Source: a virus. Taken from it: DNA of 64,000 nucleotides. How positions within the stretch are numbered: position 1 is the first letter of the stretch; the number at the start of each line of letters is the position of its first letter. Positions 18,379 through 26,707 of the stretch are shown in pieces. Position numbers and translations under genes: made by a program. The stretch is from IMG/VR virus record IMGVR_UViG_3300038393_000351, positions 1 through 64,000 of that record; one strand, written 5' to 3'. A model generated the notes under the pieces. It saw only the letters and a program-made list of their open reading frames with translations, ran no database searches and was not told the origin of the DNA.

Positions 18379-18716
18379 TTAAGCCATGTATCGAAATCAG
18401 CGTTGTCAGATTCGGACCATTCATAGTTGCTGACGTAGCGCTTACCCTCAGATAGTGCTTTAAAGTGAACTTCTGGTTCAAATTGTTCTGGATCAAACTG
18501 TCCCTCTAGACCATAGCACGAACAGTGCGAGCCGGTAACCATCTTCCACTCGGAGTCAGACTCATCAAAGAATACGACCATTGCATAACCATCGTATCCA
18601 CCACCATCGTATGAAGCCCAGATGTACTTGGGTTCAGGTGCTGTGCTGTCTAGAACAAAATTACAAACAACGTCGCTCCAGTCTTGAAATTGCCCAGAGT
18701 AGTTCTGATCATTCAT
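18354..18716 (-). CDS. hypothetical protein
   Basis: GSHCSCYGLEGQ motif; GAGG RBS. Confidence 0.7.
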   Translation of the reverse strand: MNDQNYSGQFQDWSDVVCNFVLDSTAPEPKYIWASYDGGGYDGYAMVVFFDESDSEWKMVTGSHCSCYGLEGQFDPEQFEPEVHFKALSEGKRYVSNYEWSESDNADFDTWLKWAVEQAS

Positions 18717-18741
18717 GATAAACCTCTCATTGTAAAAATAT

Positions 18742-18816
18742 TGGAGCGGACGACAGGTAACGATCCTGCCTCTTTAGTTTGGAAAACTAAGGCCCATCCA
18801 TCTAGACCACGTCAGC
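18742..18816 (-). tRNA. tRNA-Gly(TCC), atypical T-loop
   Basis: TTAGT-TTTCCAA-ACTAA; U73 then CCA; T-loop ATCGTTA; one acceptor mismatch. Confidence 0.75.
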
Positions 18817-18824
18817 TCAATCGG

Positions 18825-18925
18825 TACGTGTGCGACACCGTCCATCGCAGCCGGTGGTGTCCGTTCTTAGCATTCCGTCAGCCCTTTTCCCAGTAGCTAC
18901 TATGAGCGGGTTCTGAACACACGTA
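18825..18925 (-). ncRNA. candidate structured RNA between tRNAs
   Basis: Closing stem TACGTGTG/CACACGTA; inner stems GACACC/GGTGTC and TCAG..CCC/GGG-CTGA. Confidence 0.5.
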
Positions 18926-18928
18926 TTC

Positions 18929-19003
18929 TGGTGGACCGATCCGGAATCGAACCGGAAACTGAAGCTTGCAAAGCTACTGTTTTCCCGATTAAACTATCAG
19001 CCC
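18929..19003 (-). tRNA. tRNA-Ala(TGC)
   Basis: G3:U70 pair; loop TTTGCAA; A73 then CCA. Confidence 0.9.
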
Positions 19004-19004
19004 G

Positions 19005-19088
19005 AGCTAGGCACAGGATTTGAACCTGCGATGGGCTTGCGCCTCCGGCTTACAAAACCGTTCCGATCGACCACTCTGGCAACCTAGC
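19005..19088 (-). tRNA. tRNA-Thr(TGT) with long variable arm, CCA not encoded
   Basis: Acceptor GCTAGGT/GCCTAGC; CGGT-TTTGTAA-GCCG; variable region AGGCGCAAGCCCATC. Confidence 0.7.
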
Positions 19089-19096
19089 AAAAAATT

Positions 19097-19265
19097 TGGA
19101 GCGCATGGGAGGTTTCGAACCTCCTTTCATATCCTAAGTTTCACTTTCGTCTCTGCGTCCAGGCCATTTCAACACTCTTGCGGATCCGTTATCTGGAGTG
19201 TTGGTAAGGCGACGACTACTTGCATACCTCAAAGGATCGCTTTAATCCACATAAGCTACACGCGC
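19097..19265 (-). ncRNA. 169-nt tRNA-like RNA with ~97-nt insert replacing the anticodon loop
   Basis: Acceptor GCGCGTG/CATGCGC-T-CCA; D stem GCTT/AAGC; stem ATCCT/AGGAT; T arm GGAGG-TTCGAAA-CCTCC. Confidence 0.8.
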
Positions 19266-19279
19266 ATAATTAAACTTTT

Positions 19280-19365
19280 TGGTAGGTGATAATGGATTCG
19301 AACCACTGTAGACCGAAGCCAACGCGTTTACAGCGCGTCCCCTTTAACCACTCGGGCAATCACCT
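19280..19365 (-). tRNA. tRNA-Tyr(GTA)
   Basis: ACGCG-CTGTAAA-CGCGT; long variable arm; CCA. Confidence 0.95.
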
Positions 19366-19377
19366 TGAAACTATTAG

Positions 19378-19468
19378 GGAGGCTAGGTGCTGGTTAATTC
19401 ACCTAGGTCTACATCGCCGAGTAGACTTTACTTTCTGGGAGTTACCAACTCCTCTTGTGCAATCCTCC
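19378..19468 (-). ncRNA. candidate multi-hairpin RNA
   Basis: GGAGG/CCTCC enclosing GGAGTT/AACTCC, GTCTAC/GTAGAC and CTAGGTG/CACCTAG. Confidence 0.45.
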
Positions 19469-19501
19469 ACTTTCGCTCACTGGGTTATGAATCCAATGAG
19501 C

Positions 19502-19867
19502 TTATGTGTCTTTATCCATATTAGTTACTTGTTCGAACGTCATGCGTTTCTTACCTGACATCGGCGGCTGATCGCGATAGATGCCACACTCTTCATCGAG
19601 TTCTCTAGCAGAGAGTTCTATATAACGCCCGGCGATGCGTTCTTTATGAGCCTGAATCAAGCTCTCAAGAATAGCAGGCTTTGCTTCTTCGTGCATCCGA
19701 TTATACTCTTCGATCATTGACTTCGGCATCGGCTCAAGGAGATACTTTATATCCATGAACTTATCGAAGTCCTCACCGAGTTCGTAATGAAGTGCGGTGA
19801 TCTTACCATTCCATTCAGGAGTAGAAGCTTGAATTGTATCCAGCATTTCTTGATCAGCCCAGGGCAT
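19502..19867 (-). CDS. hypothetical protein within the tRNA cluster
   Basis: 121-aa ORF; AGGA upstream. Confidence 0.65.
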   Translation of the reverse strand: MPWADQEMLDTIQASTPEWNGKITALHYELGEDFDKFMDIKYLLEPMPKSMIEEYNRMHEEAKPAILESLIQAHKERIAGRYIELSARELDEECGIYRDQPPMSGKKRMTFEQVTNMDKDT

Positions 19868-19895
19868 CTCTCTGTCCTTTAAAATTCCTCACCCC

Positions 19896-19935
19896 GAGGG
19901 GATGTGCCATCACCACTCTCACTGCACATCCCCTC
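19896..19935. repeat. 12-bp inverted repeat hairpin
   Basis: gaggggatgtgc-N16-gcacatcccctc. Confidence 0.6.
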
Positions 19936-19943
19936 TGGTATTC

Positions 19944-20013
19944 TGGTGACGGAGTTGGGTATGATCCAACATTTCGGGCTCTAAACACCCGCGTCCTACT
20001 TAGACGATCCGCC
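19944..20013 (-). tRNA. atypical tRNA-like RNA with TTA anticodon (ochre-suppressor-like or pseudo)
   Basis: GGCGGA/TCCGTC-A-CCA; CGGGT-GTTTAGA-GCCCG; GTTGG-ATCATAC-CCAAC. Confidence 0.55.
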
Positions 20014-20020
20014 GTAAACT

Positions 20021-20099
20021 TGGCTGCACTGGATGGATTCTCACCACCAACGTCGGTCAATGCATCAGACCGGTGTTTTAAGTGTTAAACTACAATGCA
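20021..20099 (-). tRNA. tRNA-like RNA with 9-nt anticodon loop (isotype undetermined)
   Basis: TGCATTG/CAGTGCA-G-CCA; CGGTC-TGATGCATT-GACCG; T-loop TGAGAAT. Confidence 0.55.
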
Positions 20100-20120
20100 A
20101 TAAACTTCATGATCTATAAT

Positions 20121-20197
20121 TGGTCAGGGTGGGTGGATTTGAACCACCGTCCCAGCTTTCCGAGAGCCGTACTTTAACCAGACTAAGCTACACCCTG
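20121..20197 (-). tRNA. tRNA-Pro(CGG)
   Basis: C1-G72; CGGCT-CTCGGAA-AGCTG; CCA. Confidence 0.92.
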
Positions 20198-20206
20198 TTG
20201 AAAACT

Positions 20207-20282
20207 TGGTGCAACCTTCTGGAATCGAACCAGACCCTCCGGGACTTCACGCCGGCGCTCTACACGTCTAAGCTAAGGTTGC
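20207..20282 (-). tRNA. tRNA-Phe(GAA)
   Basis: Cloverleaf; loop GTGAAGT; C-C mismatch closing the stem; CCA. Confidence 0.85.
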
Positions 20283-20376
20283 TTATCTATGCAGAGAGTA
20301 ACTAAATTGTCGGAATTTTTTAGAAGAATTACTCTCTGCGGATATTTTCGACCGGGAGAGCTAGCGTGAAGAACCC

Positions 20377-20475
20377 TTAGTTACAATATCTCAGATACCA
20401 TTGATATCGTCCTCGGGTGCCTGTACTGGCCCACCCGGCGATAAATGGCTTTGCTGTATTTTTGTAGCGAGACAT
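20377..20475 (-). CDS. 32-aa basic peptide at the head of the tRNA transcript
   Basis: GAGGA RBS; MSRYKNTAKPFIAGWASTGTRGRYQWYLRYCN. Confidence 0.45.
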   Translation of the reverse strand: MSRYKNTAKPFIAGWASTGTRGRYQWYLRYCN

Positions 20476-22106: not shown

Positions 22107-22179
22107 CGAGCTTGCATGGGAATCGAACCCATGTCTCTGACTTCCACGCCAGCGTCAAGTCCACTCTACTAACAAGCTC
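22107..22179 (-). ncRNA. tRNA-like RNA with 6-nt anticodon loop, no CCA
   Basis: GAGCTTG/CAAGCTC; CTGGC-GTGGAA-GTCAG; CATGGG-TTCGATT-CCCATG. Confidence 0.6.
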
Positions 22180-26631: not shown

Positions 26632-26707
26632 TGGTGCCCGCGGCAAGATTCGAACTTGCACTGTATGGTACCTAAAACCACCGCCTCTGCCGTTGGGCTA
26701 CGCGGGC
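26632..26707 (-). tRNA. tRNA-Leu(TAG) with short variable loop
   Basis: GTGGT-TTTAGGT-ACCAT; 5-nt variable loop; A73 then CCA. Confidence 0.85.

What the first reader, a model, noticed from the sequence alone, without database searches (positions are those of the whole stretch)
19097..19265. tRNA scaffold whose anticodon loop is replaced by a ~97-nt folded domain
Seen: intact acceptor stem with U73 and CCA, D arm, 5-bp ATCCT/AGGAT stem and canonical T arm. Instead of a 7-nt loop there is a nested insert (TCGTC/GACGA, GCC/GGC, CAACACTC/GAGTGTTG) with an alternative TCCAG/CTGGA pairing. It is too short for a group I or II intron and lacks the tmRNA G3:U70 pair. Established: T4 makes CCA-ended stable RNAs of unknown function from its tRNA cluster. 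Inference: host tRNA processing releases and stabilises an aptamer, decoy or ribozyme cargo, or this is a novel mini-intron.
Basis: partly seen in the sequence, partly recalled or inferred. Interest (0 to 1): 0.75.

Follow-up and report, generated by a model that had tools for sequence, protein, structure and literature searches.

The report
Phage tRNA gene with 90-base insert
A soil T4-like phage carries a well-formed tRNA gene whose anticodon loop is split by a 90-base insert that fits no known intron or RNA family, so it is either a tRNA-shaped stable RNA like those long known but unexplained in phages T4 and T5, or a tRNA intron removed in a way not yet described for bacteria.

Summary
On the minus strand, 19265..19097 is a complete tRNA cloverleaf: a 7-bp acceptor stem, D arm, 5-bp anticodon stem, canonical T arm, U73 and encoded CCA. 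A 90-nt insert (19136-19225) follows loop position 37 or 38. Default ARAGORN and Rfam miss it, and 30 shuffled windows gave no such call.

Contigs of a roughly 85%-identical relative in two other sequencing runs keep the insert. Their acceptor and T stems differ through compensatory changes, so the scaffold is under selection. The insert has no homologue in about 150 related phage records or loci. It matches no Rfam family, and it is not significantly more stable than shuffles (z -1.2).

Against a decoding tRNA-Leu:
- The discriminator is U73 (G73 in the relative), whereas 27 of 28 Leu tRNAs of related phages have A73.
- No ligase, RtcB or splicing endonuclease gene was found in the 117 kb held.

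My best reading (0.45) is an unspliced tRNA-like stable RNA of the T5 RNA1/RNA2 and T4 RNA C kind. The main rival (0.3) is a protein-dependent intron. This scan has noted interrupted phage tRNAs on other DNA before, but not this insert. No RNA data exist.

The parts
19097..19265 (-). Whole interrupted tRNA-shaped gene, 169 nt. It lies 14 nt downstream of tRNA-Tyr (19280-19365) and 8 nt upstream of tRNA-Thr (19004-19088), on the same strand as both.
   Evidence: ARAGORN with introns allowed; sequence. It is a single copy in the 117-kb record.
19226..19265 (-). 5' part: acceptor 5' strand 19259-19265, D arm 19239-19256, anticodon-stem 5' strand 19233-19237, and loop letters UUGAGGU 19226-19232 (U33, anticodon GAG, G37).
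19136..19225 (-). 90-nt insert after loop position 38. Because of the flanking T it could equally be position 37, shifted by one base.
   Evidence: There is no Rfam match at E<=10. The covariance model R1 hits only this copy, at 124.9 bits.
19147..19215 (-). Folded core of the insert: the closing helices UCGUC/GACGA and GCC/GGC, a long hairpin, and a small CUG-GACG-CAG hairpin, together forming a three-way junction.
   Evidence: Constrained fold and pair probabilities of 0.95-1.0.
19170..19203 (-). Perfect 8-bp helix CAACACUC (19196-19203) / GAGUGUUG (19170-19177) with an 18-nt loop that contains the palindrome CGGAUCCG. The relative's indels cluster here.
   Evidence: Indels in runs X2/X3 fall at 19166-19190.
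19097..19135 (-). 3' part: anticodon-stem 3' strand 19131-19135, 6-nt variable loop 19125-19130, T arm 19108-19124, acceptor 3' strand 19101-19107, U73 at 19100, and encoded CCA 19097-19099.
   Evidence: In the relative, 13 of these 39 positions differ, all at paired or known-variable tRNA positions.

Best explanation
This is a real, selected phage gene for a 169-nt tRNA-shaped RNA. It lies in a same-strand tRNA cluster, so it is presumably transcribed with its neighbours. Its intact acceptor, T and D scaffold should let the host's RNase P and 3' trimming enzymes cut it out to the encoded CCA; this step is inferred.

The 90-nt insert sits where loop position 38 meets the anticodon stem. It lengthens the anticodon arm into an irregular rod that ends in a three-way junction. 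I think the insert most likely stays in the RNA. The product would then be a non-decoding, tRNA-like stable RNA of the kind annotated in phage T5 (RNA1, RNA2) and T4 (RNA C).

On this reading the tRNA part is a handle for processing and stability, and the extended arm is the working part. My best guess for its role is a decoy or sponge for a host or phage factor that binds tRNA by the elbow and the 5' half of a CUN-type anticodon loop. That role is pure inference.
For: Shown here:
- The cloverleaf is complete and is not a chance or chimera call.
- Contigs of a relative in runs X2 and X3 align as a single piece across 19043/19062-19466, with 48/46 substitutions and 20 gap letters. The insert is therefore kept in that relative.
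- In the 3' part of the gene, 13 of 39 positions differ from the relative, and none falls in the conserved T-loop letters. T-stem pair 49:65 changes G-C to C-G, and 50:64 changes G-C to A-U.
- The acceptor 3' strand changes C72>A, U68>C and A67>G. The 5' strand seen in a third run of the same study (the X4 loose end) reads U1 and C6. Together these give U1-A72, G5-C68 and C6-G67, all paired.
- The discriminator is not held: U73 here, G73 in the relative. By contrast, 27 of 28 distinct Leu-anticodon tRNAs in related phage loci have A73.
- The body resembles no Leu tRNA: none appears among the 40 nearest of 488 tRNAs.
- No RtcB, Rnl2-type ligase, splicing endonuclease or group I intron was found in the 117 kb held. 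The Rnl1 search was also blank, but its control did not ring.
- There is precedent. T5 annotates RNA1 (144 nt) and RNA2 (125 nt) as 'tRNA-like stable RNA with unknown functions' inside its tRNA cluster. ARAGORN reads T5 RNA1 as tRNA-Leu(UAA) with a 40-nt insert in the anticodon loop. T4 rnaC has a T arm and an acceptor-like stem around a large extra domain.
Against: - Removing exactly 90 nt restores a textbook 7-nt loop with U33 and G37. A non-decoding RNA has no obvious need for this.
- The anticodon GAG would read CUC and CUU. These are 27% and 21% of 2094 Leu codons in 95 long ORFs of this phage, and no other GAG tRNA was found in the record.
- The insert sits at the site used by protein-spliced introns of archaea and eukaryotes.
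- The record is only 67% complete, and the host is unknown. Missing ligase or nuclease genes therefore prove little.
- That T5 RNA1 and RNA2 accumulate unspliced rests on the GenBank annotation alone. I found no paper on them (0 papers).
- Pairing the acceptor 5' strand from run X4 with the 3' strand from X2/X3 assumes they are one lineage.
Confidence: 0.45

Rival explanations
1. It is a true intron. Proteins, either the host's or ones encoded in the unsequenced third of the phage, cut the pre-tRNA at both ends of the insert and rejoin the halves. The product is a 79-nt tRNA with anticodon GAG that reads the phage's commonest Leu codons.
For: - The loop UUGAGGU is restored exactly, with the join at 37/38 or 38/39.
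- CUC plus CUU make up 48% of Leu codons.
- The scaffold is under purifying selection for tRNA shape.
- The anticodon can pair with the last three insert bases, CUU, at a probability of about 0.45, as in spliced pre-tRNAs elsewhere (recalled).
- Phage tRNA genes with unexplained introns are in print for Lak megaphages (PMC6784885, passages).
Against: - The discriminator is U73, and G73 in the relative. All but one of 28 related Leu tRNAs have A73. As I recall, A73 is needed by bacterial LeuRS.
- There is no bulge-helix-bulge: only 2 of the 4 central pairs are Watson-Crick.
- No EndA, RtcB or RNA ligase was found in the 117 kb held.
- No intron-less allele was seen; both relatives carry the insert.
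- No such splicing pathway is known in bacteria.
Confidence: 0.3
2. It is a dead tRNA gene. An insertion, for instance the remnant of a mobile element, broke the anticodon loop, and the gene is decaying.
For: - The 3' part evolves fast: 13 of 39 positions differ, against at most 30 substitutions in the remaining 331 aligned bases.
- The identity letters drift.
- The same cluster holds other odd tRNA-like genes, such as the 6-nt loop at 22107-22179.
- The insert has no homologue anywhere searched.
Against: - Four pairs changed on both sides and one changed from G-U to G-C. No broken pair was seen in the acceptor or T stems.
- The T-loop consensus and the CCA are kept.
- The insert is retained in the relative rather than lost.
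Confidence: 0.1
3. The insert is a small self-cleaving or self-splicing RNA of a class not yet described.
For: Only that it is compact and folded, and sits where self-splicing introns sit in bacterial tRNAs.
Against: - It matches no Rfam ribozyme or intron family at E<=10.
- At 90 nt it has no terminal G.
- Its fold energy is not above chance.
- Its apical hairpin carries indels in the relative.
Confidence: 0.05

Closest known systems
Phage T5 RNA1 and RNA2 (NC_005859 30501-30644 and 32959-33083), annotated 'tRNA-like stable RNA with unknown functions'
   Same: They are genes inside a phage tRNA cluster on the tRNA strand, with an acceptor stem, D arm and T arm and an extra folded piece in the anticodon arm. 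ARAGORN with introns allowed reads T5 RNA1 as tRNA-Leu(UAA) plus a 40-nt insert that leaves a canonical loop.
   Different: There is no sequence or structure match to this insert (model R1). The T5 RNA1 insert lies at 32/33 and that RNA has a long variable arm. RNA2 carries an inner T-loop-like hairpin, which is absent here.
Phage T4 RNA C / species 1 (rnaC), with rnaD
   Same: It is a small stable RNA encoded at the end of the T4 tRNA cluster, with a T arm and an acceptor-like stem around a large extra domain. Its role is unknown (PMC3014915 passage).
   Different: T4 rnaC has no recognisable D arm or anticodon stem-loop, and ARAGORN finds no interrupted tRNA in it. Model R1 does not match it.
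'Enigmatic' introns in tRNA genes of Lak megaphages (Devoto et al. 2019, PMC6784885; passages read, supplement tables not seen)
   Same: A phage tRNA gene is interrupted in the anticodon region by a short insert that Rfam cannot classify. The removal mechanism is unknown.
   Different: Lak phages have alleles with and without the intron, and at least one insert is itself tRNA-like. Here no intron-less allele was seen, and the insert has no T-loop or CCA end.
Group I introns in bacterial tRNA anticodon loops (e.g. cyanobacterial tRNA-Leu UAA, Azoarcus tRNA-Ile)
   Same: A bacterial-type tRNA is interrupted in the anticodon loop.
   Different: This insert is 90 nt, has no Intron_gpI match, and ends in U rather than G.
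Archaeal/eukaryal protein-spliced tRNA introns at 37/38
   Same: The position is the same, 37/38 being one of the two possible registers. The anticodon can pair with the end of the insert.
   Different: There is no bulge-helix-bulge and no EndA gene. The phage tRNA-Tyr has a long variable arm, which is the bacterial type (recalled), so the host is a bacterium.

Membership tests
Group I intron | Conserved catalytic core (match to Rfam RF00028) | tested here: not met
   There is no match at E<=10 over 18600-20400 or in the whole record (the control rang in 8 of 14 genomes).
Group I intron | The intron ends in G and the 5' exon ends in U | tested here: not met
   The insert ends ...AACUU, or ...AACU in the other register. 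There is no terminal G.
Archaeal/eukaryal BHB intron | Two 3-nt bulges separated by a 4-bp helix at the splice sites | tested here: not met
   Positions 32-35 (UUGA) face GAAA, which gives 2 Watson-Crick pairs out of 4.
Archaeal/eukaryal BHB intron | A splicing endonuclease (EndA, PF01974) is available | tested here: not met
   No match was found in the 117-kb record; the control rang in 4 archaea. The record is 67% complete and the host is unknown.
Lak-type 'enigmatic' phage tRNA intron | A phage tRNA gene is interrupted in the anticodon loop by an insert unclassifiable by Rfam | tested here: met
Lak-type 'enigmatic' phage tRNA intron | Related genomes carry the same tRNA without the insert | tested here: inconclusive
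   The only relatives seen (runs X2, X3) keep the insert. No other relatives could be fetched.
Phage tRNA-like stable RNAs (T5 RNA1/RNA2, T4 RNA C) | Encoded within the phage tRNA cluster, with tRNA acceptor and T arm plus a non-tRNA domain | tested here: met
Phage tRNA-like stable RNAs (T5 RNA1/RNA2, T4 RNA C) | Accumulates as a full-length stable RNA in infected cells | not testable with these tools
   No RNA run holds the sequence.
Phage tRNA-like stable RNAs (T5 RNA1/RNA2, T4 RNA C) | Homology of the extra domain | tested here: not met
   Model R1 gives no hit at E<=10 in the T4 and T5 tRNA regions.
Bacterial tRNA-Leu | Discriminator A73 (recalled as the main LeuRS identity element) | tested here: not met
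   It is U73 here and G73 in the relative. A73 is found in 27 of 28 distinct Leu-anticodon tRNAs of related loci.
tmRNA | G3-U70 pair, tag reading frame, and a call by ARAGORN's tmRNA search | tested here: not met
   The pair is G3-C70. ARAGORN -m finds no tmRNA in the record.
YrlA / Y RNA | Match to the Rfam Y RNA families, and a Ro60 (TROVE) partner gene | tested here: not met
   There is no Rfam match at E<=10 and no TROVE domain in the record; the control rang in 2 genomes.

The most novel reading that the evidence does not exclude
A bacterial virus splices a tRNA without a ribozyme. The 90-nt insert at the canonical 37/38 site is cut out and the halves are rejoined by proteins, either the host's or ones encoded in the unsequenced part of the phage. 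This releases the phage's main CUC/CUU-reading tRNA, and perhaps a stable intron RNA as well.
Probability: 0.3. Interest if true: 0.85.

Novelty: new variant of a known kind. Interest (0 to 1): 0.45.

Why it matters
Phage tRNA clusters have long been known to hold tRNA-shaped RNAs with no known role. T4 RNA C/D and T5 RNA1/RNA2 are examples, and megaphage tRNA genes hold 'enigmatic' introns.

This case is clean. A fully canonical tRNA frame carries an unrelated 90-nt fold at the classical intron site, the frame shows compensatory evolution, and the aminoacylation identity letters drift. That contrast argues for selection on tRNA shape rather than on decoding. If so, phages use the tRNA fold as a carrier for other RNAs.

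If the insert is instead spliced out, it would show protein-dependent tRNA splicing in the bacterial world. A single northern blot or small-RNA library from an infected culture would decide between the two.

Tried and rejected
**Hunting for relatives**
- Exact patterns from the insert and from the 3' part found nothing in viral contigs.
- A degenerate 3'-part pattern covering both known lineages found nothing in viral contigs or genome contigs.
- A 24-mer from the conserved stretch upstream of tRNA-Tyr found nothing in viral contigs.
- Protein-anchored searches returned only distant phages. They used the ATPase (6 loci), the major capsid protein (56 loci) and the neighbouring 120-aa protein (80 loci from metagenome contigs and 80 from viral contigs). 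The neighbour protein was at most 50% identical in these. One 14.8-kb near-identical fragment turned up, but it lacks the tRNA region.
- Neither blastn nor model R1 found the insert. R1 was run on 49 whole virus records (one further handle was not held) and on 100 of the 228 loci. The positive control on the own genome scored 124.9 bits.
- Closer homologues of the neighbour protein exist, at 76% and 66% identity.

**Expression**
- No RNA holder was listed. All four runs laid were DNA contigs.

**Readings I rejected**
- Coding insert. An 18-codon frame starts at the insert's first base, AUG, with GAGG only 1 nt upstream. The relative's 1-nt indels fall inside it.
- tmRNA.
- Y RNA with Ro60.
- The UCCAG/CUGGA alternative pairing, whose probability is about 0.
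- A chimera of two neighbouring tRNAs. The call overlaps no ordinary tRNA, and the insert has no T-loop.

**Inconclusive or empty checks**
- The blank Rnl1 search (PF09511) is uninformative because its control rang nowhere.
- AAA_33 gave only a 14-bit match, below the cut-off.
- Promoter and terminator scans gave counts near their shuffle expectation.

**Literature**
- Searches found only Devoto et al. 2019 on introns in phage tRNAs.
- One search found no paper on the T5 tRNA-like stable RNAs, and one search listed none that treats them.
- The T4 genome review (PMC150520) is not held.
- Supplementary tables of Devoto et al. (Table S6) were not seen and may list inserts like this one.

Full report
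**What is there**

All tRNA genes of this window lie on the minus strand. Read on that strand, 19265..19097 is a complete cloverleaf:
- acceptor stem GCGCGUG/CAUGCGC (G5-U68 is the only wobble pair)
- U8 A9
- D arm with a GG in its loop
- anticodon stem AUCCU/AGGAU
- 6-nt variable loop
- T arm GGAGG-UUCGAAA-CCUCC
- U73 and an encoded CCA

After the loop letters UUGAGGU come 90 extra bases (19136-19225), and then the 3' strand of the anticodon stem. ARAGORN with introns allowed reports tRNA-Leu(gag), 79 nt, with a 90-nt intron. A T on both sides makes 37/38 and 38/39 equally possible joins. Default ARAGORN and Rfam report nothing here, even at E<=10.

The gene sits 14 nt after tRNA-Tyr and 8 nt before tRNA-Thr. 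It is a single copy in the record.

**Is it more than chance?**

Thirty dinucleotide shuffles of the window (1.92 Mb) gave no tRNA call of any kind. In real tRNA clusters the intron mode is unreliable. Of 64 intron calls in 224 related loci, 54 were chimeras of neighbouring ordinary tRNAs. This gene overlaps no ordinary tRNA, and its insert contains no T-loop.

The fold of the insert is less secure. With the cloverleaf enforced, its helices have pair probabilities of 0.95-1.0. But the insert alone is not significantly more stable than shuffles (z -1.2), and an 8-bp perfect helix turns up in 48 of 2000 shuffles.

**Whose genome**

The window is the first 64 kb of a 117,391-bp IMG/VR virus record estimated 67% complete. 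It encodes a T4-type major capsid protein (Pfam Gp23) that is at most 54% identical to those of cyanomyoviruses and a Stenotrophomonas phage.

The one run that holds most of the stretch is labelled soil metagenome, and may be the source sample. The phage's tRNA-Tyr has a long variable arm, which is the bacterial type (recalled). The host is therefore a bacterium.

**Relatives**

Only the read-laying step reached a relative. In runs X2 and X3 of another study, single contig pieces align across 19043/19062-19466. They show 48/46 substitutions and 20 gap letters against 424/405 window bases, so the insert is present there.

The difference table was cut off after 19131, so only the 3' part can be read in full. 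It differs at 13 of 39 positions. None lies in the conserved T-loop letters.
- Changes 49 G>C with 65 C>G, and 50 G>A with 64 C>U, keep two T-stem pairs.
- Positions 59, 60, 45 and 46 are known variable positions.
- Changes 72 C>A, 68 U>C and 67 A>G lie in the acceptor 3' strand.

A loose end of a short contig from run X4 (same study) shows the matching 5' strand with U1 and C6. That gives U1-A72, G5-C68 and C6-G67. In total four pairs changed on both sides, one G-U became G-C, and no broken pair was seen in the 12 pairs of these two stems.

There is a caveat: the 5' and 3' strands come from different runs, and I assume they are one lineage.

The rest of the aligned block (331 bases: insert, 5' part, tRNA-Tyr and its upstream region) carries at most 30 substitutions. 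The insert is therefore not evolving faster than the tRNA frame. However, ten deleted bases in X2 fall at 19166-19190, in and beside the apical hairpin. Covariation inside the insert could not be examined.

**Is it a decoder?**

For:
- Removal of the insert restores a canonical loop with U33 and G37.
- GAG would read CUC and CUU, which are 27% and 21% of 2094 Leu codons in 95 long ORFs.

Against:
- The discriminator is U73, and G73 in the relative.
- Among 28 distinct Leu-anticodon tRNAs in the related loci, 27 have A73. This holds even though 16 of them are short, class-I-sized tRNAs like this one.
- None of the 40 nearest of 488 tRNAs to the joined product is a Leu tRNA.
- A discriminator and a first base pair that differ between 85%-identical relatives are not what a charged tRNA shows.

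**Could it be spliced?**
- It is not a group I intron: no RF00028 match, only 90 nt, no terminal G.
- It matches no Rfam self-cleaving ribozyme.
- It has no bulge-helix-bulge (2 of 4 central pairs).
- The 117 kb held encode no EndA, RtcB or Rnl2-type ligase. The Rnl1 search was uninformative.
- The genome is incomplete and the host is unknown, so a protein route is not excluded.

**Comparison with what is known**
- T4 annotates rnaC and rnaD as small stable RNAs in its tRNA cluster. A review passage says their roles are unknown (PMC3014915).
- T4 rnaC has a T arm and an imperfect acceptor stem around a large extra domain.
- T5 annotates RNA1 and RNA2 as 'tRNA-like stable RNA with unknown functions'. 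ARAGORN reads T5 RNA1 as tRNA-Leu(UAA) with a 40-nt insert that also leaves a canonical loop.
- Devoto et al. 2019 (PMC6784885, passages) report 'enigmatic' introns in Lak megaphage tRNAs and state that phage tRNA introns had not been reported before. My searches found no other paper on them.
- Earlier notes of this scan describe many interrupted phage tRNAs on other DNA. Those notes led me to the Lak paper, to T5 and to the Ro60 idea. I checked each: there is no TROVE gene here.
- The present insert matches none of these. It lacks the T-loop and CCA design of the 'tRNA-shaped' inserts those notes describe.

**Verdict**

This is a real, selected, interrupted tRNA-shaped gene. I weigh the readings as follows.

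| Reading | Weight |
|---|---|
| Unspliced tRNA-like stable RNA, whose tRNA frame serves processing and stability | 0.45 |
| Protein-dependent intron | 0.30 |
| Decaying gene | 0.10 |
| New small ribozyme | 0.05 |

The remaining weight is undefined. It is a new variant of a known but unexplained kind. Interest is moderate, and the question is experimentally easy to settle.

Noticed in passing
window 19366-19466: The stretch upstream of tRNA-Tyr is conserved in the relatives: run X4 shows 7 differences over 19279-19441. It holds two hairpins, at 19383-19406 and 19405-19428. It may be a further small RNA or a transcription signal.
   Followed up: partly
window 18754-18842: In the main holder run, a second contig replaces these 89 bases (most of tRNA-Gly and its flank) with 91 other letters. 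This points to strain-level cassette swapping inside the tRNA cluster (table 5).
   Followed up: no
window 22107-22179; 19946-20014; 20021-20099: There are other aberrant tRNA-like genes in the same cluster. One has a 6-nt anticodon loop (ARAGORN 'tRNA-???'). One is found only by Rfam (34.5 bits). One has extra loop bases and a non-canonical T-loop.
   Followed up: partly
related loci, e.g. L002, L006, L092, L161, L200, L223; window 26632-26707: Short (74-78 nt) tRNAs with Leu anticodons and A73 but no long variable arm are common in these T4-like phages: 16 of 28 distinct Leu-anticodon tRNAs.
   Followed up: partly
L213:9895-10025; L116:2572-2672; L210:2090-2221: These are further candidate interrupted tRNAs in unrelated phage contigs, and none overlaps an ordinary tRNA. 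They are Val(GAC) with a 53-nt insert after position 38, Ile(UAU) with a 28-nt insert, and His with a 45-nt insert holding a T-loop-like hairpin.
   Followed up: partly
L228:1502-1645 (T5 NC_005859 30501-30644): T5 RNA1, annotated as a tRNA-like stable RNA, is read by ARAGORN with introns allowed as tRNA-Leu(UAA) with a 40-nt insert at 32/33.
   Followed up: partly
window 19169-19225 (minus strand): An 18-codon open frame runs from the first base of the insert (AUG) to a UGA, with GAGG 1 nt upstream. It is probably chance, because the relative's 1-nt indels fall inside it.
   Followed up: partly
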